Of a stretch of 64,000 nt of DNA, positions 15,001 to 52,203 are shown in pieces; the first letter of the stretch is position 1, and every line of letters begins with the position of its first letter. The notes beneath the pieces are model-generated. The model did not search any database and was not told the origin of the DNA. It saw only the letters and a list, made by a program, of their open reading frames with translations. A program made the position numbers and the translations under genes. The DNA lies in the NCBI GenBank assembly GCA_937899265.1, contig CALBPV010000036.1:2184-66183 (forward strand), given 5' to 3'. Source of the stretch: an uncultured Bacteroidales bacterium. Lineage in GTDB: Bacteria > Bacteroidota > Bacteroidia > Bacteroidales > UBA3663.

Positions 15001-15523
15001 CCAGAATGGCATCGACACCGCCTTCTGTGAGGGCAGTGATTTGTTCTCGGTATGCGGCCTCCAGTTCGTCGAACGTGATGGCTCGTGAAGCCGGGTCGTT
15101 GGCATCTTCGCTCATCGAGAGCATCTTGCCGGTCGGTCCCACCGCGCCGGCTACAAAGCGGGGCTTCTCCGGTGTCTCACGGGTCATCCGGTCGGCTTCT
15201 TCCCTTGCCAGACGAGCTGCCGCCAGATTCATTTCCCTCACGGCATCTTCCGTCCCGTACTCTCCCTGCGTCACACGTTGTGCTCCGAAACTGTCGGTTT
15301 CGATGATGTCGGCTCCCGCTTCGAGATAGAGACGATGTATTTTGCTGATGATGTCGGGACGTGTGAGCGGCAAGAGGTCATTGTTGCCTTTCAACAGATT
15401 TTTTGTGTCACGCCACCTCGACCCGCGGAAATCGTCTTCCGTGAGGTTTTCGGCTTGAATCATCGAACCCATGGCTCCGTCCAATAAGAGGATTCTCTTC
15501 TCTGATGCTTCGCGTATTGTCAT
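12050..15523 (-). CDS. metH: Cobalamin-dependent methionine synthase
   Basis: 1157 aa with four readable parts. These are the Hcy-binding N-terminus, the pterin-binding domain, the B12-binding motif (GDVHDIGKNIV) and the C-terminal AdoMet activation domain. Confidence 0.95.
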   Translation of the reverse strand: MTIREASEKRILLLDGAMGSMIQAENLTEDDFRGSRWRDTKNLLKGNNDLLPLTRPDIISKIHRLYLEAGADIIETDSFGAQRVTQGEYGTEDAVREMNLAAARLAREEADRMTRETPEKPRFVAGAVGPTGKMLSMSEDANDPASRAITFDELEAAYREQITALTEGGVDAILVETVFDTLNAKAAIAAFETVRDATEGPCPELMLSMTVSDASGRTLSGQTIEAFAASVSHAAPLSIGLNCGLGAKDMLPWLRQMAEAMPGCRISCHPNAGLPNEWGQYEDSPEKMRDEVKAMTDEGLVNIVGGCCGTTPQHIAALGELIQNLSPRKTTQVETPGLKLSGLELTAPGEGTFVNVGERCNVAGSKKFLRLIGEKNYDEAMAIARRQVEDGAMVIDINMDDGMLDGVKEMTTFLNLLMSDPAIARVPVMIDSSRWEVISAGLKCVQGKSIVNSISLREGEARFLNHAREIRKMGAAVVVMCFDEEGQATSYERKIEIAERAYKLLTEKANFPPEDIIFDPNVLTVATGMKEHDRYGLDFIEATAWIRKNLPGARVSGGLSNLSFSFRGNNTLREAMHAVFLYHAIQKGMGMAIMNPAAKVQYDDIEPELRERLEDVILCRRDDAAERLIDYSTRNKEQMQNAETRIVADPREGLTVGEKLKKALTDGDPSHMEEDIPVAIAEYGTPLSIIAGPLMDGMNHVGKLFGEGKMFLPQVVKTARTMKRAVELLNPYMEDNSGDQVASLKNGKIVIATVKGDVHDIGKNIVAVVLVCNNWDVTDLGVMVPPEKIVETAIREKADFVCLSGLITPSLEEMCHVAEAMERAGLKIPIMVGGATTSPLHTAVKIAPLYSGPVFHVRDAAMNPVICQKLTDKETRDAFIEENRRQQEALRAQRKEEMSSSHKEEKQVSQPAVQIPDRLSVPPFMGRVRHKPIPVRELIPLTDWVPFFWTWRVKPGSEEASKLQADALAWLEAHADDETYAMRAAVAYYPAKSDGNGIRVTAWKTGHPSDCPCCTKNVYLQTARQTAGEGLSLCDWVSARGDDHIGVFACTVSQRFIDELEALKQGSDDYASLLMQSLGDRLAEAAGEYMHRESGWPGIRPAVGYPSWPDLNEIFKLRELIGFDDLGISITEHGAMYPQASVCGIYIGNPRARYFNI

Positions 15524-15576
15524 TGATAAGTGAGAATTTCGGGGTACCTGTGAAATAACAACAATTCTGAATCTAT

Positions 15577-15618
15577 AAAAAAAGTCTCAAAACCCCGGTT
15601 TCCAGAGATATTGAGACT
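15577..15618 (-). terminator. Hairpin plus T7 run downstream of tRNA-Gln
   Basis: The minus strand reads AGTCTCAA-(20 nt)-TTGAGACT-TTTTTTT. The long loop makes this only a moderate call. Confidence 0.4.
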
Positions 15619-15627
15619 CTACATCTG

Positions 15628-15698
15628 TTGCCCTACCGGGACTCGAACCCAGTCAAGCAGAACCAAAATCTGATGTGCTACCATTACACCATAGGGCA
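15628..15698 (-). tRNA. tRNA-Gln (anticodon TTG)
   Basis: Minus strand: TGCCCTATGGTGTAATGGTAGCACATCAGATTTTGGTTCTGCTTGACTGGGTTCGAGTCCCGGTAGGGCAA. The acceptor stem is TGCCCTA/TAGGGCA. The anticodon stem CAGA/TCTG carries the loop TTTTGGT. The T-arm is GGTTCGAGTCC. No CCA is encoded. Confidence 0.9.
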
Positions 15699-15720
15699 GA
15701 ATTTTCTGATTTTGCGGGTG

Positions 15721-15728
15721 CAAATATA
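15721..15728 (-). promoter_or_regulatory. -7 box (TATATTTG on minus strand) upstream of tRNA-Gln
   Basis: The plus strand reads caaatata, 23 nt upstream of the tRNA 5' end. Confidence 0.5.
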
Positions 15729-15822
15729 AAGCAAAATTTCCGAATTTCCAAATTTTTATCAAAAAAAATGCACCTCAGGCATGTTTTTTCTTCCGCCTTG
15801 CCTTGTTTTCAAAGTTTTATTG

Positions 15823-15830
15823 TATCTTTG
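15823..15830 (+). promoter_or_regulatory. -7 box TATCTTTG driving the riboswitch/btuB transcript
   Basis: Exact TAnnTTTG match just upstream of the riboswitch. Confidence 0.55.
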
Positions 15831-15849
15831 CGGTCATATTATTGAGAGC

Positions 15850-16030
15850 TTATTGCTCGTCATGCAGTGCCGCAAAGCTGACCGAGTGCGGCTTAAAACA
15901 GGAAGAGGGGTGTGAATCCTCCGCTGTCCCGCAACTGTGATGTCCCTGTGGTCCGGTGTTGCCCTTGTCAATGCGATACCCCGACCGGGACTAAGCCAGG
16001 AGACTTGCTGCGTGATGCCTGCCACCCAAG
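15850..16030 (+). promoter_or_regulatory. Cobalamin (B12) riboswitch
   Basis: The conserved core is readable: cttaaaacaggaagaggggtgtgaatcctccgctgtcccgcaactgtga. This compares with the consensus GGUUAAAAGGGAA..GGUG..AAUCC..GCUG.CCCGCAACUGU. A B12 box aagccaggagacttgc lies at about 15982-15998. The element sits in the 5' leader of a TonB-dependent receptor. Confidence 0.8.
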
Positions 16031-16076
16031 TCCCGCGATCGACGGGATGCAGACGAACATCTTTATAGAACGAACC

Positions 16077-18023
16077 ATGCGTTTCTGCGCATCTTTGCTT
16101 ATTGCCTTTTTCTCGGCGACAGGGGTCTTTGCCTCTGTCAGGTCGGACACTCTGCGTGAAGTGGTTGCCGAATCGCGGCGCCCCGAACACAGCGTGAGCC
16201 TCTCTTCGACCTCACCCTCCGAATCCGTCTCCGCTGTCGCCATGAAGCGTCTCGGGCTCCGGGGAGTGAGCGATGTGCTCCGCCTCATGGGAGGCATCTC
16301 TGTGCGTGACTACGGAGGGTTGGGAGGCATGAAGACGGTTTCTGTTCGCGGCCTCTCGCCCCACCATACCGCTGTCCTTCTGGACGGTCTGCCAGTCTCC
16401 AATTCACAGGCCGGACAGATTGACCTCTCGCGATTTGCAACCTACAACATGGAGTCGTTGCGCCTCCACATCGGTGGACCTTCCCGCATCCTGGCTCCGG
16501 CGCTCCTGGGTGCCTACTCTGGGTCGGTGGCTATGGAATCGCACTCCGAAGGTTGTGAAGCCGTTGTCGAATACGGTTCGTGGAACACGCTCAGTGCCGA
16601 TTTCTCCTCGCCGTGGGCCTCTGTGCTCTATAACCACACCGACGGGGACTATCCCTTCACGCTAAGCAACGGACAGCATTCCTCAAGACTGCATCGTGAC
16701 CACGGACGCGTCGATGCTCTCCAGGCCGCGTTACCCTCCTTCCTCCGCTGGACCTCCGGGCCTTCCTGTTCATTCTCTCTTCGCAGCTCTCTCCAGGGGT
16801 ATTATTCCCATCGCGAGTTGCCCGGCTCGGTCGTCTATTACACCAACGAAGGCACCGAGCAACTGTGGGACCTCAACCTCTCGGCCCGCACGCGTCTCGA
16901 AGGAATGATTTCCGAAAAATGGTCCCTTGTGGCTGGTCTCCAGTATAACTACGGGTGGAACAAATACTTCGATGCCGCTCTGGTCACCGACGGCTCAGAC
17001 GGCACTTCACGCTATCGTCAGAACGAATACTATCTCACGGCAGGTCTCGCCTACCGTCCGCTTCGCTCGCTCTCGCTGGCATTGGTCCACGATGGACAGT
17101 GGTCCTCCCTGCGCACCAATCTCACCGGGGGAGAACAGCCCGACCGCTGGATTTCGTGGAATGCCCTCCGCGTTCGTTACCGCACCTCCCGGCTCAACAT
17201 CGAAGGCGAACTGCTGGCCACCGTCCATCGTCTCCGCGAGACCTCCGGCCTCCATGCCTCGCCGTCTGCCTCTTGCCGATGGACTCCCTCATTGGCGGCT
17301 TCGGTTCAACCCTGGGCCACTCAGTCCTTTTTCGTGCGTGCCTCCTGGCGCAAGTCGTTCCGCCTGCCTTCGTTCAACGACCTCTACTACTATCGTCTCG
17401 GCAACCACGACCTCCGTCCCGAACAGGCCACCGAAACCAACGTTGGCCTCACATGGGGTCATGAGTCCGAAACGTGGAAGACGGAGCTCACTGCCGATTT
17501 CTACTTCAATCGCGTCACCGACAAGATTGTGGCCTTTCCCACTACCTTCGCCTGGCGTATGACCAACTTCGGACGGGTCGATATCCTCGGATTGGATTTG
17601 GGCGGCAATATGGAGTGGCGCTCCGAACAGGTGTCCGTCAACGCTGTGTTCCACATCTCCTGTCAAGATGCACGCGACCGCACAGATTCCGAAGATTCTT
17701 TCCTCGCCACCCCGTCGGCCATCCCCTACACGCCTGCCGTCACGGGCAATGCCTCCCTCTCCTGCGTCATGCCCTGGGTCTCTGTCGGATGGACACTCAA
17801 CTGGATGGGCCGACGCTATTCCAACGTCATAGAGAGCGACCGTTACCGACTCGACCCTTTTGCCGAACACGGATTCTCTCTTTCGCGTGTATTTTATTTA
17901 AAAGGTGTGGAACTCATTCCGCAAGCCTCGCTGCTCAATGCTTTCGACAGTCATTTCGAGATAGTACAATATTATCCCATGCCAGGTCGTCATTGGCGAC
18001 TCGGCCTGACAGCCAGATTCTGA
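16077..18023 (+). CDS. btuB: TonB-dependent receptor, BtuB-like
   Basis: Start taken at MRFCASLLIAFFSATGVFA (signal peptide). Plug motifs DVLRLMGGISVRDYGGLGGMKTVSVRGLSPHHTAVLLDGLPV are present, and the protein ends in Phe. It follows a B12 riboswitch. Confidence 0.85.
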   Translation: MRFCASLLIAFFSATGVFASVRSDTLREVVAESRRPEHSVSLSSTSPSESVSAVAMKRLGLRGVSDVLRLMGGISVRDYGGLGGMKTVSVRGLSPHHTAVLLDGLPVSNSQAGQIDLSRFATYNMESLRLHIGGPSRILAPALLGAYSGSVAMESHSEGCEAVVEYGSWNTLSADFSSPWASVLYNHTDGDYPFTLSNGQHSSRLHRDHGRVDALQAALPSFLRWTSGPSCSFSLRSSLQGYYSHRELPGSVVYYTNEGTEQLWDLNLSARTRLEGMISEKWSLVAGLQYNYGWNKYFDAALVTDGSDGTSRYRQNEYYLTAGLAYRPLRSLSLALVHDGQWSSLRTNLTGGEQPDRWISWNALRVRYRTSRLNIEGELLATVHRLRETSGLHASPSASCRWTPSLAASVQPWATQSFFVRASWRKSFRLPSFNDLYYYRLGNHDLRPEQATETNVGLTWGHESETWKTELTADFYFNRVTDKIVAFPTTFAWRMTNFGRVDILGLDLGGNMEWRSEQVSVNAVFHISCQDARDRTDSEDSFLATPSAIPYTPAVTGNASLSCVMPWVSVGWTLNWMGRRYSNVIESDRYRLDPFAEHGFSLSRVFYLKGVELIPQASLLNAFDSHFEIVQYYPMPGRHWRLGLTARF

Positions 18024-18088
18024 ACAGAATAAAAAGACGGCAATATAACGAAATAACGAAATAATGAATAACTTTAACAACAAAAAAA

Positions 18089-19183
18089 ATGAAGAAAACA
18101 ATCCGCTTTTCGTCACTGGCCCTTGTGGCCTGCATTCTGCTGGCCGGCTGTGAAGGGGACGATTTCAAGTACCCCGAAGAACCCGTCAACTATGCTGTTG
18201 TCCCCTATGGCTATGTCCTCAATCAGGGCAGCTGGGGTTCCAACAATGCCTCCCTTTCTGCCATCTACCTTCGTGGCGGACAGTATATGGTGAGTCCCGA
18301 CTTCTATCTCAAAAACAACGGACAGAACCTCGGCGACCAAGCTCAGGACATCCTCATGAGCGAGGGCGGGCGCGTGTTTGTGAGTGTCACCAATTCCAAG
18401 TACATCGCCAAGCTCGACCGCAACGGTGTGGAACTGGCCCGCTACAGCGACTTCACCAACGGCCCCCGTTCATTTGTTGAGGCCGACGGCGACCTTTTCC
18501 TTTCGACCTACGACGGCAAAGTGCTGCGCTTCGACACCGCTACCCTCACACCCAAAGCCACCTACGAGTTGGGAGCCTGGCTCGAGGACATCGCTGTGGC
18601 TGAAGGCAACGTTGTGGTCTCCAACTCCGACTACACCGGCATGGGGCTGGGCCACTCGCTGGGCATCATCAACGTGGCTTCCGGACGTGTCACCGAAGTG
18701 GAGTGTGCTCCCAATCCCACCCGTCTGGTGGCTTGGAACGGCGATTTCTTCTTCACCACCACCGAGTATGATGCCTCTTGGAATGCCGTCACCAAGGTGT
18801 GGTGTCTGTCCGATGCCGGTGCGGCCAACACCATCGACTCCGTCACCTTGGCCACCAATCTCTATCCCACCGACAACTGCCTCCTCATGATGAAGCAGAC
18901 GGTCAACTATTACGTCACGCCCTACGCCTACTCCAACAATTTTCTTTCCTACAGCAACGGAACAGTGAGTGCCGTCGAGCCATTCAAGACGGACCTCTCC
19001 TCGGCTCCTGTCTATATGGTTCAGCAGCACGGAGACAACCTCTATGTGGGCATCTCCAACTATGCGGCATCGGGTTCGGTGCTCAACTCGTCGCTTCTCA
19101 TTTTCGACCTTGAGGGCAATCTCGTCCAGCGTATTTCCGATGCCGGCGGTGTCTTCCTCTCCAAGATTGTCTTTGCCGAATGA
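18089..19183 (+). CDS. Surface lipoprotein, beta-propeller-like repeats (YncE/DUF5074-like; possible BtuG-type corrinoid binder)
   Basis: Lipobox MKKTIRFSSLALVACILLAGCEGDD. Has a NQGSWGSNNASLSAI motif and repeated blade-like segments (VFVSVTNSKYIAKLD, LFLSTYDGKVLRFD, VVVSNSD, FFFTTTEYD, LYVGISNY). Lies between btuB and btuF. Confidence 0.65.
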   Translation: MKKTIRFSSLALVACILLAGCEGDDFKYPEEPVNYAVVPYGYVLNQGSWGSNNASLSAIYLRGGQYMVSPDFYLKNNGQNLGDQAQDILMSEGGRVFVSVTNSKYIAKLDRNGVELARYSDFTNGPRSFVEADGDLFLSTYDGKVLRFDTATLTPKATYELGAWLEDIAVAEGNVVVSNSDYTGMGLGHSLGIINVASGRVTEVECAPNPTRLVAWNGDFFFTTTEYDASWNAVTKVWCLSDAGAANTIDSVTLATNLYPTDNCLLMMKQTVNYYVTPYAYSNNFLSYSNGTVSAVEPFKTDLSSAPVYMVQQHGDNLYVGISNYAASGSVLNSSLLIFDLEGNLVQRISDAGGVFLSKIVFAE

Positions 19184-20319
19184 GACGGCTCCCTCTGTTC
19201 CTTCTGATGTTGCTTGCTGTGGCCTGTACCGGGCCGCAGCAGGAGACTCGGCTGGTGTCTGCCCGTGTGGAATATGCCACGTTGCTCCAAATGCAGGATA
19301 CCTGTCGCGGAACCCTGTGCCGCATCATCAATCCATGGGACACCACCCGAGTGCTGATTCAATATTTCCTGCTGCCCGAAACGGACACGTTGTTCTCCGA
19401 GGCGGAGGCGGAAAGTCTGGAGCATCACTACGGAAAGTTTACCCTCGTCCGTACACCGCTCTCACGCAATACCGTTTGTGCGTCATGCCACTGCTACCTC
19501 CTCCGCGAACTTGGTGCCCTTGACTGCATGGCTGTTGTCTGCGATGCCGACTATACCCAGCTCCCAGATGTTCGCAAACGTCTCGCCGACGGCTCTCTCC
19601 TCGATGCCGGCACGGCCATTGCGCCCAACATCGAGGTGCTCCTTTCTGCCCAAAGCGATGCCATTTGGATTTCTCCCTTCGAGAATGCCGGTCTCGGACA
19701 GCTCTCGTTGCTCCGCATCCCCGTCATCTTCTGTGCCGACTATATGGAGAACACTCCGCTGGCGCGGGCCGAATGGATGAAGTTCTACGGACGGCTTGTG
19801 GGCCGTGCTGCCGAAGCCGATTCTCTCTTTGCCGTTGTACGCAGCAACTATCTGCGCCTCGCTGTGGCTCCCTCCGACACCCTGTCGCGCCCCGTTCTGC
19901 TGGTGGATTTGCCCACTTCTGCCACGTGGTATGTGCCGGGCGGACGTTCCACCATGGGACATCTCTATCAGGATGCAGGCTTCCGCTATCCCTGGGCTTT
20001 CGACACCCATGCCGGCTCGTTGTCGCTTTCTCCCGAAGTGGTGCTTGACGACGGATGGGAAGCTGATGTTTGGCTTTTCAAGTATTACAATACCGGGCGC
20101 GACTGGACACTCTCCGACCTCCGGGCTCTCTCGCCCGCATTCGGTTCGTTGCGGGTGGTTCGCGAGGGGAACTTGTGGGGATGCAACACCGCAACGTCTC
20201 CCTATTTCGACGAGACGCCTTTCCGTCCCGACCTTCTGCTTGGCTCGCTGCGTCGAATCGCCCTTCCCGCCGACACGTTGGCTCCCGATTCCCTGCCTGT
20301 CTATTTCCGTCCGTTATGA
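19180..20319 (+). CDS. ABC transporter periplasmic substrate-binding protein, BtuF/TroA-like
   Basis: Lipoprotein signal MRRLPLFLLMLLAVAC. An ATGA start/stop overlap links it to the previous gene and also to the next gene. Layout is class III binding-protein-like (...DAGTAIAPNIEVLLSAQSDAIWISPFE...). Confidence 0.75.
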   Translation: MRRLPLFLLMLLAVACTGPQQETRLVSARVEYATLLQMQDTCRGTLCRIINPWDTTRVLIQYFLLPETDTLFSEAEAESLEHHYGKFTLVRTPLSRNTVCASCHCYLLRELGALDCMAVVCDADYTQLPDVRKRLADGSLLDAGTAIAPNIEVLLSAQSDAIWISPFENAGLGQLSLLRIPVIFCADYMENTPLARAEWMKFYGRLVGRAAEADSLFAVVRSNYLRLAVAPSDTLSRPVLLVDLPTSATWYVPGGRSTMGHLYQDAGFRYPWAFDTHAGSLSLSPEVVLDDGWEADVWLFKYYNTGRDWTLSDLRALSPAFGSLRVVREGNLWGCNTATSPYFDETPFRPDLLLGSLRRIALPADTLAPDSLPVYFRPL

Positions 20320-21281
20320 AACGTTTTCTCTTCCTTTCTGTGGTGCTTTTGGCCCTCGGAGTGGCCAATATCCTCTGCGGCTCGGTCTCCCTCGGGGCTG
20401 ATGAAGTATGGGCTGCCCTCACGGGCGGCGAGGGTGTGAGCGCCCCTCATCGGTTCTTTGTGCTCCACGTCCGTGTGCCTGCGGCCATCACCGCAGCCCT
20501 TACGGGGGCGGCTCTCAGTGTATGCGGTCTGACACTCCAAAGCTATTTCCGCAATCCGCTGGCGGGTCCTTCCGTGCTGGGCATCACCTCCGGAGCCAAT
20601 CTCGCCGTTGCCATCGTCATGCTCATGGGTGTCATGTCGCCGGCAGCCCTTACAGGTTCTGCCCTTGTGGGTGCTATGGCTGTACTCCTCCTGCTTTTGG
20701 CTCTCACCCGGTGGATACGACAGGATCTCACGTTGCTCATCATCGGTGTCCTGCTTTCCTATCTCGTTTCGGCCATTATCACTCTGCTCAATTATTATGC
20801 CACCGCCGACGGCGTGCAGAGCTATATGATTTGGGGGATGGGCAATTTCGGCGGCGTGGGTTCTGAACATCTGGCTTTTTACAGTCTCACCGTTCTCACA
20901 GGCCTTCTCCTCACCGTCTTCCTCATCAAACCGCTCAACGGATGGTTGCTGGGCACCGACTATGCCCTCAGTCTCGGCATCTCCCCCTCGATTACACGTC
21001 TCCTCGTCCTTCTCTCCACCGGCATTCTCGCGGCTGTCACTACCGCCTATTGCGGCCCCATTTCGTTCGTAGGACTCAGCGTTCCCCATTTGGCCCGTCT
21101 GGCCTTCCATAGCGATGACCATCGCCGCCTCTTGCCTGCCACAGCGCTCCTGGGAGCCATTCTCACCTCTCTGTGTCTCCTTCTCAGCACCCTTCCTGCA
21201 GAGGGACGCCTCCTTCCCATCAACGCCCTCACCCCCATTTTCGGCTTCCCCGTCGTCCTCTATATCCTGCTCCGCAAATAA
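20316..21281 (+). CDS. FecCD-family ABC permease (BtuC-like)
   Basis: Start at MKRFLFLSVVLLALGVANILCGSV (ATG 20316). About 9-10 hydrophobic spans. FecCD signature region GVLLSYLVSAIITLL...WGMGNFGG. Confidence 0.9.
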   Translation: MKRFLFLSVVLLALGVANILCGSVSLGADEVWAALTGGEGVSAPHRFFVLHVRVPAAITAALTGAALSVCGLTLQSYFRNPLAGPSVLGITSGANLAVAIVMLMGVMSPAALTGSALVGAMAVLLLLLALTRWIRQDLTLLIIGVLLSYLVSAIITLLNYYATADGVQSYMIWGMGNFGGVGSEHLAFYSLTVLTGLLLTVFLIKPLNGWLLGTDYALSLGISPSITRLLVLLSTGILAAVTTAYCGPISFVGLSVPHLARLAFHSDDHRRLLPATALLGAILTSLCLLLSTLPAEGRLLPINALTPIFGFPVVLYILLRK

Positions 21282-21591
21282 TCTTGAAACTTGAAACTTG
21301 CATCAGTGCCGAGGAACAGACCAGCGACCCGTCTGGGTCGTAGGGCTGAACATCAGCGAGAACCGCCACACCATCGACCGGTGGAAGGTCGTGCAGGTGA
21401 AGCGCCCCCGCTTCTTGATGCTTAAAGTTTCCCACACTTCCCAATGTGTGCAGAATATAAAGTCCAGTCAGCAAGAAGGGGGCTGTCGGCACAAGTTCCT
21501 AATCCGAGGAAAACAGTGAGCGCATTGAGTGCAAAATGAGAGCAAATATTTTTTCTCCCAACACGTCACATGGGCACGAAATCTGGGCTCC

Positions 21592-22014
21592 CCGGCAAAA
21601 TCCTGTGTTCGAAAACAGTTTGATTTAGGGGGCGTTACCGTCCGTTTGGGTCCATCGATAATCGATGGCGGCTTAAAAAACTTTTTGCGAGTCCATCGTC
21701 CGACGATAGAGGCTCGGAAAACTTTTTGCGGATCCATCGATAATCGATGGCGGCTCAAAAAACTTTTTGCAGGTCCATCGTCCGACGATAGAGGCTCGGA
21801 AAACTTTTTGCGGGTCTATCGATATCCGATGGCGGCTTAAAAAACTTTTCGCGGGTCTATCGATATCCGATGGCGGCTCAAAAAACTTTTTGCAGGTCCA
21901 TCGGAGTCCGATAGGGTCGTCAACGCCCCTTTTGGGTTCATCCGATTCGGTTGGATTCAAAACGGGTCGTTGATGCCCCCAATCAAACTATTTTCGAACA
22001 CAGGGTTTTGCCGG
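21592..22014. repeat. 423-bp non-coding element bounded by imperfect terminal inverted repeats of about 40 bp (MITE-like)
   Basis: Left arm, 21592-21632: ccggcaaaatcctgtgttcgaaaacagtttgatttaggggg. Reverse complement of the right arm, 21976-22014: ccggcaaaaccctgtgttcgaaaatagtttgattggggg. They differ by 2 mismatches and a 2-nt indel. Confidence 0.6.
21651..21915. repeat. Tandem array of six exact-period 41-bp units plus a partial seventh, each with an internal palindrome
   Basis: Units start at 21651, 21692, 21733, 21774, 21815, 21856 and 21897. Type A reads tccatcgataatcgatggcggctYaaaaaactttttgc; type B reads tccatcgtccgacgatagaggctcggaaaactttttgc. The order is A B A B A' A'. Confidence 0.9.
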
Positions 22015-22182
22015 TGAGCGATTGTTACGCGAAGTTCGGGAATCGTGACTCGTGACTCGTGAAATTATCCTGGACAAGCACTCCACCGGCGTCGGGGCGG
22101 GTCTATATGGTCATGAGAAACAGGACGCACAGCTCTATTTCCGCGACAGGAGCTTGACCTCTTCAGAGCGCTGCAATGTGGG

Positions 22183-22485
22183 TTATAGTCTGCCCTCTTT
22201 CAGGACTTTATATCTCCGCTGAAGGGCCACCAAGACACTTCTTTCGGCCATGGGATTGAGCCCTCTGAATGTCGTGTGCTGTTTGAGTTCATCCAACGAC
22301 ATCTCCATGAGAAGTTTTGCAATGCACTCATCGGCGAAGGAGTTGGATACAACATTGACACCTGTAAAGTCAAGAACGACTTTCTCACCTCCATGGATTA
22401 ACAGCAGCAGTTTTTCGCGAAGTTTCCGCCCCATCTCCCGTGTGCCGAAATCTGTTCCATATTCTATAAACCTGAATTCTACCAT
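22183..22485 (-). CDS. STAS-like domain protein (DUF4325-type)
   Basis: 100 aa: MVEFRFIEYGTDFGTREMGRKLREKLLLLIHGGEKVVLDFTGVNVVSNSFADECIAKLL... The VVLDFxGV..xSxSF pattern is as in SpoIIAA/RsbV-like STAS folds. Its ATG overlaps the stop of the upstream GHKL gene by 7 nt. Confidence 0.65.
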   Translation of the reverse strand: MVEFRFIEYGTDFGTREMGRKLREKLLLLIHGGEKVVLDFTGVNVVSNSFADECIAKLLMEMSLDELKQHTTFRGLNPMAERSVLVALQRRYKVLKEGRL

Positions 22486-23129
22486 AATGATTCCAATTCT
22501 TCTGTTTCTACAAATGTTTCATTATATTCACATACGGCATCGGTCCGATGATCAACCACTTGATTGGCATCTATTTCCTTGCCCGTACTGATTTCCATAT
22601 AGATGAGAGTTCCTTGCCAAAAACCGTTTTCCCAAACGTCAGTCTTGCCATCCTTGATGATTAATTTGTGACTACCTGAATGCAGAATAAAACGTTTGCC
22701 TATATCATTGACAAGCCTTGCTGTAGTATATAACCCGAAGCCCATACCCTTTCCGTCGGTTATGGCATCTTGCAGACATAGACGAAGGGCATCTGCTTCA
22801 GTTATGTCCCTGTATTGGACGTTTTCGCTCAGTGACTTTCGGATACCCTTCCCGTCGTCTGCTATCAGTATTCGCAGTGTGGACTCCTCCCTGTCGTAAC
22901 AGGTAATTGCCGTCCCCAAAGGCTTGCCCGAATGAATGTGCACATTGTCCATTATCTCATAGAGGCAATAACTGAGTGCTTGCAACACGCTGACTTCTAT
23001 CTCAAAATGAGAGGTCATCGCATTGACAACGTTTTTATATACTGTATTCAATGTCTGGGCATCAAACACATCTATCGAAGGATTGGCAGCTCCTTTGAAA
23101 TATCTGTCTAAGAGGAATGCTATATCCAT
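22479..23129 (-). CDS. GHKL-superfamily ATPase, RsbW/SpoIIAB-like (histidine-kinase-like ATPase domain only)
   Basis: N-box EIMDNVHIHS, G1 LRILIADDGKGI and G2 DGKGMGFGLYTTARL. Start moved from TTG (23171) to ATG MDIAFLL (complement 23127-29), because a -7 box overlaps the TTG. Confidence 0.7.
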   Translation of the reverse strand: MDIAFLLDRYFKGAANPSIDVFDAQTLNTVYKNVVNAMTSHFEIEVSVLQALSYCLYEIMDNVHIHSGKPLGTAITCYDREESTLRILIADDGKGIRKSLSENVQYRDITEADALRLCLQDAITDGKGMGFGLYTTARLVNDIGKRFILHSGSHKLIIKDGKTDVWENGFWQGTLIYMEISTGKEIDANQVVDHRTDAVCEYNETFVETEELESLW

Positions 23130-23168
23130 TAGGCCTTGTTTAATACATTTAAAGAGAATATTCGGCTG

Positions 23169-23176
23169 CAAAGTTA
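23169..23176 (-). promoter_or_regulatory. -7 box (TAACTTTG on minus strand) for the GHKL/STAS pair
   Basis: The plus strand reads caaagtta, about 40 nt upstream of ATG 23129. Confidence 0.45.
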
Positions 23177-23290
23177 CATTTTTTTTTGAAAATACAAAGC
23201 TTCCAAACCGTTAAAAGTAAAAAACTACGGTAAAAGCCCCACCGGTTCAGCACGAAACGTCATCTTTGTCCGCCAAATTTGGAACTAGAA

Positions 23291-24571
23291 TCAGTTTTGG
23301 AGCAACCACTCGAGAGCAGAGCGGATGTGAATGATATGACCGGAGAGAAGCGTCTCGCGAGTCTCCGAGAGTGTTATCAGTGTGAGATTGTCGCATCGGA
23401 GTATGTTGGAGGCTTGTACCAACGCATTTGTTTCCCGGGAGAGAGTTTTGGGCGAGTCGATATCGTATGCCACTTGTACCAACTCTATCGTACGCCCCTG
23501 TTCGCATACGACAAAATCAACCTCCTTGCTACGGCTGGAGGGTTTGTAATAGTAGATGTCGTAGTACAACGGAGCTGCCCTGCGAAGCAATTCGATATAT
23601 ACAATATTCTCCAACCGCCAACCGGCATTCTGTCCGACCAGACTGTCTGTCCTATTGGCTATCAGACCTGTGTCGATGACGTATGCTTTGGAATCTCGCA
23701 AGCGCTCCCGGCTTTTGAATGAGAACTTATGAATTTGCAGAATAAGAAAAGCTTGCATCAGGTAGTTCACATATTTTTTGGTAGTCACCGGGCTTCCGAT
23801 ACCGAACAGTCGGGTCAATTCATCGTAGTTTATTTCCTGACAGTTGTTGTTGATTAGGTGATTGGCAATCAATTGGAGAGCCTCCACATTTCGCAGGTGA
23901 AAGCGTTGACGGATATCTTTGTGGATAATGGTGCCTATCAGCCCTTGCACGTATGCCCTCTTGTTGCGGATGTGCATAAGTTCCGGGAAGCCGCCGTTAA
24001 CCAGGTATTCTGCCCAAGCTGCCTTTACCGCTGCCTTGGCTTTGGTGGTCAGCCCGCGAGTGTCAGTCTTCAGATATGAGCAGTATTCGGCAAAGGAAAA
24101 GGGGAAAAGGCGGATTTCATTGTACCGTCCGGTCAGATGTGAGGAGAACTCGCTACTGAGTAATTTGGCATTTGATCCTGTCACGAAAACATGGAATCCC
24201 GTTCGAAGCAGGCGATTGACAAAAAGATGCCATCCTTCGACGTTCTGTATCTCGTCCAAAAGGATATAGTTGATGTCCTGCCCATACAACTGGTAGATGC
24301 AACTGAGCAGTGTATTGAGATCAGGGGTTTTAAGGTCGAAAAAACGGTCGTCGTCGAGGTTGGCGTAAGCGTACCTGATCTGATGTTGGAGTAGCACTTT
24401 GTGGCAAAGTGTGGACTTGCCAGAGCGGCGCACACCTATAACGACTTGCGCCAAGGGGCTGTCGAACTCGAATAGCTCCTCTTCCATTCGGCGAGTCCAA
24501 CTCGAAAATTTCATTCCGGCTACCTCGTCCTTCTGCTCGGCAAGCACTTCGAGGATGATGTTTTCTGTCAT
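23291..24571 (-). CDS. AAA+ ATPase with C-terminal DUF4143 (COG1373 type)
   Basis: 426 aa with Walker A GVRRSGKST and Walker B YILLDEIQ. The C-terminal end has a restriction-endonuclease-like EVDFVV...ELVQVAYDI segment. Confidence 0.8.
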   Translation of the reverse strand: MTENIILEVLAEQKDEVAGMKFSSWTRRMEEELFEFDSPLAQVVIGVRRSGKSTLCHKVLLQHQIRYAYANLDDDRFFDLKTPDLNTLLSCIYQLYGQDINYILLDEIQNVEGWHLFVNRLLRTGFHVFVTGSNAKLLSSEFSSHLTGRYNEIRLFPFSFAEYCSYLKTDTRGLTTKAKAAVKAAWAEYLVNGGFPELMHIRNKRAYVQGLIGTIIHKDIRQRFHLRNVEALQLIANHLINNNCQEINYDELTRLFGIGSPVTTKKYVNYLMQAFLILQIHKFSFKSRERLRDSKAYVIDTGLIANRTDSLVGQNAGWRLENIVYIELLRRAAPLYYDIYYYKPSSRSKEVDFVVCEQGRTIELVQVAYDIDSPKTLSRETNALVQASNILRCDNLTLITLSETRETLLSGHIIHIRSALEWLLQN

Positions 24572-24602
24572 ATCTTCAATATTTTTGAATCTTTTGTGGG
24601 GA

Positions 24603-24610
24603 CAAAGATA
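24603..24610 (-). promoter_or_regulatory. -7 box (TATCTTTG on minus strand) for the DUF4143 ATPase
   Basis: The plus strand reads caaagata, 32 nt upstream of ATG 24571. Confidence 0.5.
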
Positions 24611-24638
24611 CGTTTTTTTTCCAAATGAGCAAAAAAAA

Positions 24639-24745
24639 GTGTAGTAAAATGCAGATTTTCGGGTCCAAAAGTGTAGTAAAATGCAGATTTTCGGGTTCTA
24701 AAGTGTAGTAAAATGCAGATTTTCCGACTAAAAAGTGTAGTAACC
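24639..24745. repeat. Three exact-period 32-bp direct repeats plus a partial fourth
   Basis: gtgtagtaaaatgcagattttcgggtccaaaa (24639), gtgtagtaaaatgcagattttcgggttctaaa (24671), gtgtagtaaaatgcagattttccgactaaaaa (24703) and gtgtagtaacc... (24735). The array sits immediately upstream of the ATPase promoter. Confidence 0.9.
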
Positions 24746-24856
24746 TGCCGGTTAAATCTCCGACATTGGATGGATTAAGTATACGGGCGGCCAGCGTAAT
24801 CCCAAGCCGCCGTTTCGACAAGTCTCATCACAAACCCGAAATTCCTTTTGCCTCAA

Positions 24857-25519
24857 TCAGTCTCTGTTCATCACGCTTTCCGCCAACAAATACACTCGCG
24901 TACCGAGTGTTTGCGGCCAACGGTCAGAAGGATTCTTGTCCAACGTCCTTGCCCGTTTTATCGCGTCTTCCACATGAGTTATCAAAGCCTGTGCATCGTA
25001 GGATGACTCATGATAAGCCCCCATCTTCCGGCGTAACCGCACCTTCAAATATGGGTCGGCATTTTTAGATTTTCGGCGATTCTCCATCCATAGAATCTGT
25101 TCCTCGGGTGTCACTGATGCTGAATCTTCTATATGCAATAATAGCCAAAGTTCGAAACAAGGATTGCTTAATGCCATGTGCATAGCGACTTCCTGTGAAC
25201 ATTCCGTGGCAACACGAGAAAGCATGGCCTCAGTCCAGCGGTCTTTATCTACTACTAACCAGAGTTCGTCGTCTGCCTCTAACTCATATTGGCTTTTGTA
25301 GTCATTGAGCTGTTTCAACACATGTTCAGGACTGGAGTTGTTTTGTTCATCTGCACTACGTTCCAGAATATGTACGTGCACACGGGGATTGGTATATTCT
25401 TTGGCTAATGCCTTGAAATATATCCGCTCCGTGTCTTTGCCCTCGGAGGCTATGACTATGAGGCGAGCGTCACGAAATGCCTCGCGACGTTCACGCATCA
25501 AACTATTCCTGCTTCGCAT
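24857..25519 (-). CDS. RloB-like protein (AbiLii-like)
   Basis: Motifs IVIASEGKDTERIYF, LWLVVDKDRW and ALSNPCFELWLLLH match the RloB family signature. Overlaps the upstream ATPase gene by 17 nt. Confidence 0.85.
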   Translation of the reverse strand: MRSRNSLMRERREAFRDARLIVIASEGKDTERIYFKALAKEYTNPRVHVHILERSADEQNNSSPEHVLKQLNDYKSQYELEADDELWLVVDKDRWTEAMLSRVATECSQEVAMHMALSNPCFELWLLLHIEDSASVTPEEQILWMENRRKSKNADPYLKVRLRRKMGAYHESSYDAQALITHVEDAIKRARTLDKNPSDRWPQTLGTRVYLLAESVMNRD

Positions 25520-26846
25520 TGTCCCAATGAATATTATTCAGTTCACCAAAGAATGGAATTGCTCCATAGCGACCGTTCAGATAACCTTTCTGCACATTCT
25601 CCCTTGGCTTGTACTCACAGAGTGAAGACAAATGGCTTTCTCCTTTCTTGTCTTTCTCCACAAACCATACTTCATCTTGGCGGACAGGGGCTGTAGAAAG
25701 CAAATTTGATTCGTGTGTTGTGCATATTAACTGCATCTGCGAGTCGCTTCTGAGCAAACTGTTGTACAACTCCAATAATTTCAATGTCAACATCGGGTGT
25801 AAGCTCCTGTCAACCTCGTCAATCACATAGACTGCATCATTGGCACGCATATCGATAAGCATTGGAATGAAGTCGAACAAGCGTGACGTTCCATCGGACT
25901 CTTCGAACATTTCGAAGATATAGTCCGAGTTGCTGTCATCCTTCTTGTGGATGGTTTTCAGCTCTTGCCACTTCAGATTCTTCGACTTGTCTTTTTCTGC
26001 AATGATGAAGCGGTTCTCATTGTGAATCACCACCCCGATTTCGGCTCCTTTGCCTTCAAGAGCCTCCTCAACCTTTTGCCGAATATCATCGTGAATGCCC
26101 AATTCTTCAGGTTTTGACTCTACACGACAAAGGTCGGAGATGCCTGTTCCGAAATAATTCAGAAGTTCGCGCATCACGGTTCTGAATTGGGTGTCGTTTA
26201 CAACTCGGAACGGGAAATCTGTTCTGTGTGTATTTGGGAAGATGACATTCAGATTCTCAAACCATTTTCGGGCAGACTTAATCGCATCAATTCCCTTTCC
26301 GTTTCGCTTGATATACTCACTAAGGAAAGTACCCTTGGTAGGAGTACCATCAATCAAGAATTTCAAGAATTGTCCATCCTCATCCTTCATGTACTGTGTA
26401 GCAATTACATTTTCCCAGTTGTCGGCAGAACGCTTGCGCTCAAAAATCATGGTGTCATTACGACTGCCCGTCTTATACAGCCATTCCTCCAGCAAACCGC
26501 CTTTAGAGAAAGCTATACCGTAAGCAAAGAACTGGTTTTCTGCCTTGAACTCCAATTCGATACACGAACGCTCTTGAGGAGCATCCGTCATCTTGAAATA
26601 GTTATATTTTAGATTACTCCAGCCATTCAGGGCAAATTCTTTGACAATAGCCAAACATTTTATGATATTTGACTTTCCGGAAGCATTGGCACCATAAATC
26701 AATCCCATGCGGAGTACGGATAAATCATCCCGTTTCTCCGCACGTGACACTTGCAACGGCAATTGGTCGCTCTTGCTGGCTGTAAACAAGATGCGCGTTT
26801 CCTCGTTAAATGAGTAAATGTTTTCAAATTTGGCTGACAATAACAT
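25503..26846 (-). CDS. AAA_21/ABC-type ATPase (AbiLi/RloA-like)
   Basis: Walker A GANASGKSN, Walker B VYVIDEVDRSLHP and the TTHES motif. Start set to ATG MLLSAKFENIYSF (complement 26844-46), because the longer ORF starts at TTG and contains the -7 box. Confidence 0.85.
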   Translation of the reverse strand: MLLSAKFENIYSFNEETRILFTASKSDQLPLQVSRAEKRDDLSVLRMGLIYGANASGKSNIIKCLAIVKEFALNGWSNLKYNYFKMTDAPQERSCIELEFKAENQFFAYGIAFSKGGLLEEWLYKTGSRNDTMIFERKRSADNWENVIATQYMKDEDGQFLKFLIDGTPTKGTFLSEYIKRNGKGIDAIKSARKWFENLNVIFPNTHRTDFPFRVVNDTQFRTVMRELLNYFGTGISDLCRVESKPEELGIHDDIRQKVEEALEGKGAEIGVVIHNENRFIIAEKDKSKNLKWQELKTIHKKDDSNSDYIFEMFEESDGTSRLFDFIPMLIDMRANDAVYVIDEVDRSLHPMLTLKLLELYNSLLRSDSQMQLICTTHESNLLSTAPVRQDEVWFVEKDKKGESHLSSLCEYKPRENVQKGYLNGRYGAIPFFGELNNIHWDNAKQE

Positions 26847-26878
26847 AACAACGTCTGATATTTCGTAAATTTTCGTTG

Positions 26879-26886
26879 CAAAGATA
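26879..26886 (-). promoter_or_regulatory. -7 box (TATCTTTG on minus strand) for the ATPase/RloB operon
   Basis: The plus strand reads caaagata, 33 nt upstream of ATG 26846. Confidence 0.5.
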
Positions 26887-27079
26887 ACCAATTATTTTAA
26901 AAATCAGACAATTATTCACGTTAAATATGTATAAATACGACAAATATTATGCCATATAATACTGTTTTGTCAGTTAATGGCACAGTTATTCGACAAATTT
27001 GACAATTCTACAATATATTAAAGGTAATATAAGGCGCTATGCTTTGTTCGCCAAAACCGGGCAGGAAATCAACGACTGG

Positions 27080-50279: not shown

Positions 50280-50325
50280 TGTGTCGGAAAGTTTACAATA
50301 ACAGTGATACTTCTTATAAGCGCTG

Positions 50326-50333
50326 CAAAGATA
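50326..50333 (-). promoter_or_regulatory. -7 box (TATCTTTG on minus strand) for the CE8-like operon
   Basis: The plus strand reads caaagata, 47 nt upstream of ATG 50279. Confidence 0.5.
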
Positions 50334-50468
50334 AGCATTATTTTTGAAATCAGCATACAAAAACCAAAAAAAAATCAAAAAAAGTTCCAAACACGCGTAT
50401 TTTTGCCGTTTGCAGGACAGTTCGGAGGTGTTTAAGGCTCTTCTATTAATCAAGAATTTGAGTATTAT

Positions 50469-50723
50469 GGTCTAAGGTCTAAGGTCTAAGGTCTAAGGTC
50501 TAAGTCTAAGGGCAAAGGTCTAAGGGCAAAGGTCTAAGGGCAAAGGGCAAAGGTCTAAGGGCAAAGGGCAAAGGTCTAAGGTCTAAGGTCTAAGGTCTAA
50601 GGGCAAAGGTCTAAGGGCAAAGGTCTAAGGTCTAAGGTCTAAGGTCAAAGGTCAACCATGAACCCTTAACCATGAACCCTTAACCATGAACCGTGAACCC
50701 TTAACCATGAACCATTGTTCATG
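50469..50723. repeat. Compound microsatellite: about 27 heptamers (GGTCTAA and GGGCAAA interleaved), then 14-mer CCATGAACCCTTAA repeats
   Basis: With A=GGTCTAA and B=GGGCAAA the read-out is: A x5, GTCTAA, B A B A B B A B B A A A A B A B A A A, GGTCAAA, GGTCAA. Next come CCATGAACCCTTAA x2, one copy with a 7-nt insertion, and a terminal palindrome catgaac-catt-gttcatg. Confidence 0.92.
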
Positions 50724-52066: not shown

Positions 52067-52089
52067 TGTTTGTATTCTCAAATGCGCTG

Positions 52090-52097
52090 CAAAGATA
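52090..52097 (-). promoter_or_regulatory. -7 box (TATCTTTG on minus strand) for the GT2 gene
   Basis: The plus strand reads caaagata, 24 nt upstream of ATG 52066. Confidence 0.5.
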
Positions 52098-52203
52098 GCA
52101 TAAATTTGGGAGAAAAACAAGAAAATGAAAAAGTTTTTCGAAAAAAAAAGCATACACCTCATTTTGAGATGTATGCAAAGGATGGGAATGGCTTCTGCCT
52201 GAA

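What the first reader, a model, noticed from the sequence alone, without database searches (positions are those of the whole stretch)
21592..22014. Inverted-repeat-bounded 423-bp element packed with 41-bp palindromic tandem repeats
- Two arms of about 40 bp (21592-21632 and 21976-22014) are reverse complements with only 2 mismatches and a 2-nt indel.
- Between them lie six units with an exact 41-bp period and a partial seventh.
- Each unit combines a short palindrome (ccatcgataatcgatgg is perfect; ccatcgtccgacgatag is imperfect) with a constant A/T tract aaaaactttttgc.
- The units alternate in an A B A B A' A' pattern, which implies an 82-bp higher-order duplication.
- There are no unique spacers. 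A 41-nt period is not a multiple of 3, so the array is not a coding repeat.

Possible explanations are a MITE-like mobile element, an iteron or operator array for a DNA-binding protein, or a long, highly structured RNA. It lies directly downstream of the GHKL/STAS pair at the island edge. Short heptamer duplications flank it (cttgaaa x2.4 at 21283; cgtgact x2.6 at 22044).
Basis: seen in the sequence. Interest (0 to 1): 0.65.

Follow-up and report, generated by a model that had tools for sequence, protein, structure and literature searches.

The report
Small transposon remnant with hairpin repeats
The feature is a copy of a small, non-coding, transposon-like repeat (a MITE) that carries an internal 41-bp hairpin minisatellite; it occurs at three or more places in this uncultured bacterium's genome, and the copy in this window is a hybrid of two of them, probably a mis-joined contig, so it is a fairly ordinary kind of element.

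Summary
Two 44-nt inverted arms (89% complementary) bound six exact 41-bp units and a partial seventh, and each unit holds a palindrome and an A/T tract.

It is not a local oddity tied to the GHKL/STAS genes. Contigs of the same species carry the same element at three unrelated loci:
- FecCD–pepC: complete, 7 or 8 units depending on strain, flanked by a perfect 8-bp direct repeat GAAATCTG.
- STAS–dnaX: left arm truncated.
- A third locus at a contig end.

It is non-coding and matches no Rfam family. I found no relatives in 185,579 species genomes, viral contigs, plasmids or phages.

The best reading is a lineage-restricted MITE-like non-autonomous transposon with an internal variable-number minisatellite. 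The architecture is that of MITEPgRS (also 41-nt repeats) and BrickBuilt in Porphyromonas gingivalis, and of pneumococcal BOX elements. The 8-bp duplication and GGCTC termini hint at an ISL3-type transposase, but no parent IS was found.

The window copy equals copy 1 up to 21802 and copy 2 from 21745, joined in 58 shared bases. Another assembly of the same strain has both parental junctions. The window junction, and its A B A B A' A' order, is therefore a recombinant or, more likely, a chimeric contig.

Interest is low to moderate.

The parts
21578..21585 (.). GAAATCTG: the left copy of the 8-bp target-site duplication of family copy 1. Its right-hand partner is absent from the window.
   Evidence: In L004 and L011/L008 the same 8-mer flanks both ends of the intact copy. 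In the window the right flank reads GATTGTTA.
21586..21647 (.). Left terminal inverted repeat (arm 21586-21630, starting GGCTCCCCGGCAAAA) plus a subterminal segment. It contains the near-palindrome CTGTgTTCGAAaACAG.
   Evidence: Identical to the left end of copy 1 in L004/L011.
21648..21893 (.). Six 41-bp units (A B A B A' A'), each with a hairpin-forming palindrome and an A/T tract.
21745..21802 (.). 58-bp zone identical in family copies 1 and 2, where the window switches from copy 1 to copy 2. This is the recombination or mis-assembly joint.
   Evidence: the window is identical to L004 up to 21802 and to L002 from 21745; 1 mismatch in 9196 nt on the left and 0 in 3068 nt on the right.
21894..21975 (.). 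Partial seventh unit and right subterminal segment, including an extra palindrome TTCATCCGATTCGGTTGGATTC (21937-21958) and two copies of GGTCGTYRAYGCCCC.
   Evidence: Identical to copy 2 in L002.
21976..22020 (.). Right terminal inverted repeat (reverse complement GCTCACCGGCAAAACCCTGTGTTCGAAAATAGTTTGATTGGGGG), belonging to family copy 2.

Best explanation
The feature belongs to a small family of MITE-like non-autonomous DNA transposons in an uncultured, probably Bacteroidota, bacterium from bioreactor metagenomes.

A family member has three parts:
- terminal inverted repeats of about 45-55 bp;
- short subterminal segments;
- an internal minisatellite of 41-bp units, each with a 17-19-bp palindrome and an A/T tract.

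Shown:
- At least three copies sit at unrelated intergenic sites.
- The one intact copy is flanked by a perfect 8-bp direct repeat.
- Unit number and unit order differ between strains and between copies.
- There is no coding capacity.

Inferred:
- The element was inserted by a DDE transposase supplied in trans that makes 8-bp staggered cuts. The termini begin GGCTC/GACTC/GTCTC, which resembles the GGCTCTTCG ends of ISL3-family elements. The assignment to ISL3 is a lead only (about 0.35).
- The minisatellite grows, shrinks and homogenises by slippage, unequal crossing-over and gene conversion.
- The palindromes are kept because hairpin or cruciform potential is either selected or regenerated mechanistically.
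- Any effect on neighbouring genes (3'-end RNA structure between convergent genes) would be secondary.

The copy in the window is not an original insertion. It is the left part of copy 1 (FecCD side) fused to the right part of copy 2 (STAS side) within 58 identical bases. Another assembly of the same strain shows both parental junctions. The fusion is therefore either a homologous-recombination product present in part of the population or, more likely (about 0.6-0.65), a chimeric contig.
For: Family and ends:
- Copy 2, next to the same STAS gene, has the right arm and six units but no left arm, and is followed by dnaX instead of the B12 operon.
- Copy 1, after the same FecCD gene, has both arms and 8 units (L004) or 7 units (L008/L011), with GAAATCTG on both sides directly abutting the inverted termini GGCTCCCCGG / GACTCACCGG.
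- Copy 3 lies at the start of locus L006 from contig FLNY01004991.1.
- Two chance hits (L007, L009) show what non-family matches look like.

Non-coding: the overlapping ORFs have no Pfam hit. The 234-aa ORF that a gene caller placed across the element has no homologue but itself among 5.8 billion proteins.

Structure and composition:
- Both strands fold far better than shuffles, with z about -12.
- The element is AT-richer (47-50% GC) than its flanks at 55-60%.
- The known flanks at insertion ends are AT-rich: GAAATCTG, GATTGTTA, ACAAAAAC.

Hybrid nature:
- The window is identical to L004 through 21802 and to L002 from 21745.
- There is 1 mismatch in 9196 nt and 0 in 3068 nt to the FLNU contigs, against 99.15% and 99.74% identity to the FLNY strain.
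- The window copy has non-matching flanks, as expected for a recombinant of two insertions.
- Other assemblers break inside the array (L012 and L013).

Literature:
- MITEs with internal variable-number tandem repeats are known in the Bacteroidales. These are MITEPgRS, with 41-nt repeats in up to 14 copies (PMC2575886, PMC4596501), and BrickBuilt (PMC4596501).
- ISL3 elements have GGCTCTTCG termini and 8-bp direct repeats (PMC6305408 Table 3; PMC11448079).
Against: - The target-site duplication can be read on only one insertion, although it is seen in two strains.
- No autonomous IS with matching ends was found.
- No empty site could be found. Only two or three strains of the species exist in the collections.
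- The detectable copy number is low (3). Exact-match scans could miss diverged copies.
- The similarity of the ends to ISL3 termini is short: 7 of 9 at best and 6 of 9 on the other arm of the intact copy.
- Nothing shows that the element is still mobile.
Confidence: 0.8

Rival explanations
1. The array is a set of binding sites (operators, iterons or a partition site) for a dimeric DNA-binding protein that regulates or serves the adjacent genes, for example the GHKL/STAS pair.
For: Each unit holds a dyad-symmetric site at a fixed 41-bp spacing, about four helical turns. Each arm holds the near-palindrome CTGTgTTCGAAaACAG. ParA/ParB genes lie about 7 kb from copy 1 in L011.
Against: - The same array lies beside unrelated genes at three loci.
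- It has transposon-like ends and a target duplication.
- Unit number varies freely.
- The palindrome centres change while staying self-complementary. This fits a hairpin constraint better than a fixed recognition sequence.
- From my own knowledge, the arm palindrome does not match the canonical parS sequence. This was compared from memory and not run as a test.
Confidence: 0.05
2. The element is primarily a structured RNA. It would be either a non-coding RNA gene or a 3'-UTR module that terminates or stabilises the transcripts of the convergent flanking genes.
For: The predicted folding is very strong, at -210 and -193 kcal/mol with z about -12. Two copies lie between convergent genes. Transcribed MITEs are known to have such effects (PMC10969869, PMC3049150).
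Against: - There is no Rfam family at the gathering threshold or at E<=1, apart from a chance miRNA hit.
- The structure is equally good on both strands and as DNA.
- Mismatch and wobble positions do not favour one strand.
- No TAnnTTTG promoter motif lies in or near it.
- The simple scan finds no terminator inside the element, and the single site it reports in the surrounding region (22145-22128, minus strand) is no more than shuffles give.
- The copy number of the 'domains' varies.
Confidence: 0.08
3. The inverted arms are recombinase sites, and the 345-bp segment between them is an invertible switch (inverton) of the kind common in Bacteroidales.
For: It is an IR-bounded segment a few hundred bp long in a probably Bacteroidota genome.
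Against: - There is no promoter motif inside and no recombinase gene next to any copy.
- Copy 1 has the same orientation in four assemblies.
- Copy 2 lacks one arm altogether.
- The 8-bp direct repeat outside the arms is a transposition mark, not an inversion mark.
Confidence: 0.03
4. The units are REP/BIME-like palindromes spread by a RAYT (IS200/IS605-type) transposase acting on hairpins in single-stranded DNA.
For: The units are imperfect palindromes whose stems are kept through compensatory changes. They occur in clusters in intergenic regions.
Against: - All units have the same orientation at an exact 41-bp period. From my own knowledge, BIMEs instead show alternating orientation.
- The array is enclosed by long terminal inverted repeats with an 8-bp duplication.
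- No isolated units were found elsewhere in 64 kb or in the fetched loci.
Confidence: 0.03

Closest known systems
MITEPgRS (MITE464) of Porphyromonas gingivalis
   Same: It is a MITE in a Bacteroidales genome. Its interior is a tandem array of a short repeat whose number varies between copies (up to 14), and the reported period is 41 nt, the same as here. Copies are intergenic, partly fragmentary and associated with genome rearrangements (PMC2575886; PMC4596501).
   Different: - Its TIRs are the 12-nt ISPg1 (IS5-family) ends GAGACTGTTGCA. The best match in this element has 4 mismatches of 12.
- It has direct-repeat-like Repeat A/B modules inside both ends, whereas here the subterminal parts are inverted.
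- It has 20 or so copies per genome against 3 or more here.
- The 2015 paper reports no BLAST matches to that repeat outside P. gingivalis.
BrickBuilt MITE of Porphyromonas gingivalis
   Same: It has a minisatellite without spacers enclosed by 'leader' and 'tail' segments that carry small inverted-repeat ends. It is strictly intergenic, repeat number differs between strains at the same locus, and many copies are one-ended (PMC4596501).
   Different: It has a 23-nt unit, IS5-type 12-nt TIRs, and short TSDs that differ in length between copies. Promoter activity was shown experimentally for BrickBuilt, and none is indicated here.
BOX elements of Streptococcus pneumoniae (boxA-(boxB)n-boxC)
   Same: It is a composite interspersed repeat with two end modules that pair with each other and a variable tandem array of an internal module. 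It forms a stem-loop structure, and array length varies between strains in proportion to its size (PMC3049150).
   Different: It occurs in Firmicutes and has an unrelated sequence. From my own knowledge, not tested here, boxB is about 45 nt. It has a much higher copy number. A parent IS (ISSpn2) has been proposed for it on the basis of TIR similarity.
ISL3-family insertion sequences and their MITEs
   Same: They make an 8-bp direct repeat of an AT-rich target, and their terminal inverted repeats begin GGCTC...CG (ISArsp7 GGCTCTTCGCGG with DR CCTTTGCC; the Microcystis ISL3 and its 187-nt MITE) (PMC6305408, PMC11448079). Here the ends are GGCTCCCCGG, GACTCACCGG and GTCTCATCGG, with the DR GAAATCTG.
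   Different: No ISL3 transposase gene with these ends was found. The similarity covers only about 9 nt. Other families also make 8-bp duplications (IS256, IS66, IS1595 and part of IS4, from my own knowledge).

Membership tests
Prokaryotic MITE (non-autonomous DDE transposon) | Short (about 50-1000 bp) and without a transposase gene | tested here: met
   The copies are about 435-483 bp. Overlapping ORFs have no Pfam hit at E<=1. The 234-aa ORF called across it has no homologue but itself.
Prokaryotic MITE (non-autonomous DDE transposon) | Terminal inverted repeats | tested here: met
   The arms are 44 nt and 89% complementary. In the intact copy the pairing reaches the very ends, GGCTCCCCGG / GACTCACCGG.
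Prokaryotic MITE (non-autonomous DDE transposon) | Target-site duplication directly outside the ends | tested here: met
   GAAATCTG lies on both sides of copy 1 in FLNU (L004) and FLNY (L008/L011). The chance for a fixed register is about 1.5e-5. It cannot be read on copy 2 (truncated) or copy 3 (contig end). It is absent on the window hybrid, as expected.
Prokaryotic MITE (non-autonomous DDE transposon) | Several dispersed copies in one genome | tested here: met
   There are three loci in assembly GCA_900089705.1 (contigs ...4988...4991...4993) and two in GCA_900089675.1.
Prokaryotic MITE (non-autonomous DDE transposon) | A cognate autonomous IS with the same ends | tested here: inconclusive
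   Exact-pattern scans with arm cores found only the MITE copies themselves in metagenome contigs. They found nothing in species-representative genomes or viral contigs. The organism's full genome could not be scanned.
Prokaryotic MITE (non-autonomous DDE transposon) | Presence/absence polymorphism (empty sites) between strains | not testable with these tools
   The flanking proteins' 90% clusters hold only 1-2 full-length sequences (the metH cluster also holds two 39-aa fragments), so only two or three strains are available. All of them carry the copies.
MITEPgRS / MITE464 (P. gingivalis) | TIRs identical to ISPg1 (GAGACTGTTGCA / TGCAACGGTCTC) | tested here: not met
   The best match anywhere in the element has 4-5 mismatches of 12. 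The TIR sequences were taken from PMC4596501 Table 2.
MITEPgRS / MITE464 (P. gingivalis) | Internal tandem array of a 41-nt repeat, variable in number | tested here: met
   The period is exactly 41, with 6-8 units depending on copy and strain. Only the architecture and period are met.
BrickBuilt (P. gingivalis) | 23-nt internal repeat and GAGACCTTCGCA-type ends | tested here: not met
   The period here is 41. The best match to the TIR has 4 mismatches of 12.
ISL3-mobilised element | 8-bp direct repeat of the target | tested here: met
   The family rule comes from PMC6305408 and PMC11448079.
ISL3-mobilised element | Ends beginning GGCTCTTCG, shared with an ISL3 transposase gene in the same genome | tested here: inconclusive
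   The left end GGCTCCCCG matches 7 of 9, and the right end of the intact copy, GACTCACCG, matches 6 of 9. No transposase partner was found.
REP/BIME (RAYT-associated) | Palindromic units in alternating orientation, without TIR or TSD | tested here: not met
   All units are in direct orientation at an exact 41-bp period and are enclosed by TIRs with a TSD.
CRISPR array | Repeats separated by unique spacers | tested here: not met
   The units abut head to tail with no spacers.
Bacteroidales invertible promoter (inverton) | Promoter inside the IRs, both orientations present in the population, and a recombinase | tested here: not met
   There is no TAnnTTTG motif. The orientation is the same in all assemblies. 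One copy lacks an arm. No recombinase gene is adjacent.
Rfam RNA families | Match to a curated covariance model | tested here: not met

The most novel reading that the evidence does not exclude
The 41-bp hairpin array is not just selfish filler. It would be a functional module shared in design (the same 41-nt period) with MITEPgRS of Porphyromonas. This would point to a Bacteroidota-wide class of MITEs whose internal hairpin repeats are the working part. They could be multiple subterminal transposase-binding or hairpin-recognition sites, or a recombination-promoting or RNA-structural cassette. The class would be mobilised by a transposase family not yet linked to MITEs in this phylum.
Probability: 0.1. 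Interest if true: 0.45.

Novelty: new member of a known kind. Interest (0 to 1): 0.27.

Why it matters
Biologically this adds one more lineage-restricted MITE with an internal minisatellite to a short list (MITEPgRS, BrickBuilt, BOX). It comes from an uncultured bioreactor bacterium. The 41-nt period shared with MITEPgRS may deserve a direct sequence comparison.

Practically it matters more. The element is a repeat at which short-read assemblers break or mis-join. The 64-kb window very probably joins two chromosomal regions that are not adjacent in the organism: the B12-uptake/metH region and the AbiL/PDC-S01/GHKL-STAS defence island. Any reading of this window that depends on these genes being neighbours should be treated with caution. 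One example is the claim that the element lies 'at the island edge' downstream of a B12 operon.

Tried and rejected
- Exact-pattern scans of 185,579 species-representative genomes gave 0 hits with an arm core and with a degenerate unit pattern. Neither the taxon nor relatives could be obtained this way.
- Viral contig scans with the unit and arm patterns gave 0 hits.
- BLASTN ('distant' mode) of the element against plasmids and phages gave no match.
- Rfam at the gathering threshold on the whole window, and at E<=1 on the region, gave nothing relevant.
- The promoter/terminator consensus scan found no more than shuffles give. No Bacteroidota -7 motif TAnnTTTG lies in 21282-22182.
- Pfam on the six ORFs overlapping the region found nothing.
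- I searched the protein collection with the spurious 234-aa ORF called across the element, hoping to pick up other family members that had been mis-called as genes. It found only itself.
- Looking for further strains or empty sites via exact-protein look-ups of FecCD, the binding protein and the 364-aa protein returned only the same few contigs.
- Literature look-up of the assembly and run accessions, to name the organism, was uninformative.
- The sequence of MITEPgRS Repeat C was not available in the held text or supplements.
- Two metagenome hits (L007, inside a coding sequence that by eye looks like a UDP-glucose dehydrogenase gene, and L009) were chance 21-mer matches and were discarded.
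- I considered and rejected these readings: CRISPR (no spacers), inverton, parS/iteron array, REP/BIME, and a coding repeat (41 is not a multiple of 3, and there are no homologues).

Full report
**1. The observation**

The sequence is as described.
- The repeat finder reports one inverted pair, 21587-21630 and 21976-22019, 44 nt and 89% complementary, with 345 nt between the arms.
- A 24-nt arm core occurs only at these two places in the 64-kb window. None of 100 shuffles gave any match.
- Tandem Repeats Finder finds a 41-bp period with 6.5 copies at 21648-21912, and an 82-bp period with 3.1 copies, score 379. The start-to-start spacing is exactly 41.
- The tract AAAAACTTTTTGC occurs six times, all in the array, against 0.1 expected.
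- Split into units, the array reads A B A B A' A' plus a partial unit.
- Each unit carries a palindrome. Over 15 distinct unit variants from all copies, the 9-pair helix is paired in 89% of cells. The two central pairs occur as U-A/C-G, A-U/U-A and G-C/A-U, so the centre changes while staying self-complementary.
- The A/T tract is itself a weak palindrome.

**2. Context in the window**
- Upstream on the + strand lie a cobalamin riboswitch, a TonB-dependent receptor, a 364-aa protein with no family hit, a periplasmic binding protein and a FecCD permease that ends at 21281. metH lies on the other strand.
- Downstream on the - strand lie a STAS-like DUF4325 protein, a GHKL ATPase, an AAA_14/DUF4143 protein (PADLOC PDC-S01) and an RloB/AAA_21 pair (PADLOC AbiLii/AbiLi).
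- The element is AT-richer (47-50% GC) than the flanks at 55-60%.

**3. The same element elsewhere**

Exact-protein look-ups brought in contigs of the same species from other assemblies.

*Copy 2.* With the STAS protein, three loci (L001-L003) are 99.3-99.5% identical to the window from 32484 down to 21625, and there the similarity stops inside the left arm. These loci have the right arm and six units in a different order. In window orientation they read B B A' B A' A'. The left arm is cut down to GATTAGGGGCC, and dnaX follows instead of the B12 operon.

*Copy 1.* With the FecCD protein, L004 (assembly GCA_900089675.1, 'FLNU') shows the B12 operon followed by a complete element. It has a left arm identical to the window's, units A B A B B' B' B' B', an extra palindrome and a right arm. 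The next gene is pepC (Peptidase_C1_2). Directly outside the inverted termini GGCTCCCCGG... and ...CCGGTGAGTC lies the same 8-mer, GAAATCTG, on both sides.

*Copy 3 and the arm-core scan.* A scan of metagenome contigs with the arm core found copy 1 again in the second strain (FLNY01004993.1, L008/L011). It has the same 8-bp flanking repeat but seven units. The scan also found copy 2 again, and a third copy at the start of locus L006 from contig FLNY01004991.1. Two further hits were obvious chance matches.

*Assembler behaviour.* Two other assemblies end inside the array (L012, L013). This is what a dispersed repeat does to short-read assemblers.

**4. What it is**

The features are:
- terminal inverted repeats that reach the ends;
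- an 8-bp direct repeat of an AT-rich target;
- three or more copies at unrelated intergenic sites;
- one-ended fragments;
- no coding capacity: Pfam finds nothing on the overlapping ORFs, and the 234-aa ORF a gene caller placed across the element has no homologue but itself among 5.8 billion proteins;
- strong fold-back structure on both strands, z about -12 as DNA and as RNA of either strand.

This is the standard description of a MITE. The interior is a variable-number minisatellite.

The family is narrowly distributed. Arm and unit patterns found nothing in 185,579 species-representative genomes, in viral contigs, in plasmids or in phages.

The species itself is rare. The 90% clusters of its flanking proteins hold only one or two full-length sequences. 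For that reason no empty site could be sought.

From the TAnnTTTG motifs upstream of genes in L006 (seen in the sequence), the TonB-dependent receptor and the DUF5606/DUF5683 neighbours, I infer a Bacteroidota host. One record name places it in a bioreactor metagenome. The taxon was not confirmed.

**5. How it most likely works**

The features listed in section 4 are shown. The following steps are inferred.
- Insertion was by a DDE transposase supplied in trans that makes 8-bp staggered cuts.
- The ends begin GGCTC, GACTC or GTCTC followed by ..CGGCAAAA. ISL3-family elements begin GGCTCTTCG and make 8-bp duplications of AT-rich targets (PMC6305408 Table 3; PMC11448079). This is a short resemblance and no partner IS was found, so I give the ISL3 assignment about 0.35.
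- Differences in unit number (7 against 8 at the same locus) and in unit order between copies fit slippage, unequal exchange and gene conversion.
- The right subterminal part of copy 1 differs more between the two strains than the flanks do, which points the same way.
- The compensatory changes in the palindrome centres argue for a constraint on hairpin potential rather than on a fixed protein recognition sequence. The wobble or mismatch position favours the + strand in A' units and the - strand in B units. A strand-specific RNA is therefore not indicated.

**6. The window copy is a hybrid**

Base by base, the window is identical to copy 1 (L004) from the left flank through 21802. It is identical to copy 2 (L002) from 21745 through the right flank. 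The two copies share the 58 bases in between.

The window differs from the FLNU contigs by 1 base in 9196 on the left and 0 in 3068 on the right. The FLNY strain is 99.15% and 99.74% identical. The window therefore comes from the FLNU strain.

The FLNU assembly nevertheless contains both parental junctions, read through on contigs of 11.5 and 6.2 kb. The FLNY strain contains them as well. The window copy has non-matching flanks, GAAATCTG on the left and GATTGTTA on the right.

The parental arrangement is thus ancestral. The window junction is either a homologous-recombination product (an inversion or deletion between copies) present in part of the population, or a chimeric contig made through a 58-bp shared stretch. 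I favour the chimera at about 0.6-0.65, but I cannot decide without reads.

**7. Comparison with known elements**
- The closest known architecture is MITEPgRS (MITE464) of Porphyromonas gingivalis. It has TIRs like ISPg1 and an internal tandem array of variable number, up to 14 (PMC2575886). The repeat is reported as 41 nt (PMC4596501).
- BrickBuilt, in the same species, is a 23-nt minisatellite between a leader and a tail with small inverted ends (PMC4596501).
- Pneumococcal BOX elements are boxA-(boxB)n-boxC composites with variable boxB number (PMC3049150).
- Membership in the two Porphyromonas families fails on the ends. Their 12-nt TIRs have no match better than 4 mismatches in this element.

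**8. Rivals**
- *Operator/iteron array.* Rejected because the array sits beside unrelated genes and has transposon ends.
- *RNA gene.* Not supported: there is no Rfam hit, folding is symmetric, and no promoter motif was found. No terminator-like site lies inside the element. A secondary effect on the 3' ends of flanking transcripts remains possible.
- *Inverton.* Rejected: no promoter, no recombinase, one orientation in every assembly, and one copy lacks an arm.
- *REP/BIME.* Rejected: all units are direct, and the array is enclosed by TIRs with a TSD.
- *CRISPR.* Rejected: no spacers.

**9. Verdict**

This is a real, well-defined feature of a known kind. It is a new, lineage-restricted MITE family with an internal 41-bp hairpin minisatellite. 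It is seen here as a hybrid copy that probably marks a mis-join in the contig. Interest is low to moderate. The practical caution about the contig is the most useful outcome.

Noticed in passing
window 21745-21802 (junction); whole window left and right of it: The 64-kb window joins the metH/B12-uptake region to the defence-island region through a 58-bp stretch shared by two repeat copies. Another assembly of the same strain (1 mismatch in 9196 nt and 0 in 3068 nt) keeps these regions on different contigs with other neighbours (pepC, dnaX). The contig is probably chimeric.
   Followed up: yes
window 50469-50715: A long heptamer microsatellite, GGTCTAA x26.6, is directly followed by AACCATG x8.9. 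It lies between ORF 48714-50453 (-) and a glycosyltransferase-like ORF 50789-52696 (-). It could be a slippage-prone contingency locus.
   Followed up: no
window 24635-24743: A 32-bp tandem repeat (3.4 copies, 90% matches) lies in the gap between the RloB/AbiLii gene and the AAA_14/DUF4143 (PDC-S01) gene.
   Followed up: no
window 22183-26891: This is a defence-type gene cluster on the - strand. It holds a STAS-like DUF4325 protein overlapping a GHKL ATPase (neither matches a PADLOC system convincingly), PDC-S01 (E 1.5e-98), and AbiLii and AbiLi (E 8.9e-22 and 1.3e-78).
   Followed up: partly
window 12050-21281: The B12 module comprises metH (-), tRNA-Gln (15627-15698, -), a cobalamin riboswitch (15848-16026, +), a TonB-dependent receptor, a 364-aa protein with no Pfam or NCBIfam hit, a periplasmic binding protein and a FecCD permease. 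No ABC ATPase gene follows the permease in the window or in the parental loci.
   Followed up: partly
L011 12153-13951 (FLNY01004993.1): The FLNY strain carries a NotI-like endonuclease plus a D12-class methyltransferase between element copy 1 and pepC. The FLNU strain (L004) lacks this pair, and the sequences diverge just after ...GCGCGCGAAAATAA.
   Followed up: no
CTTGAAA x2.6 follows the FecCD stop codon. Both are small microsatellites unrelated to the element's ends.
   Followed up: partly
L006 1-700 (FLNY01004991.1): The third copy of the element lies about 460 bp upstream of a gene. By eye its N-terminus looks like that of a polysaccharide-export (Wza-like) lipoprotein, and TAnnTTTG promoter-like motifs lie in between. 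The gene was not analysed.
   Followed up: no
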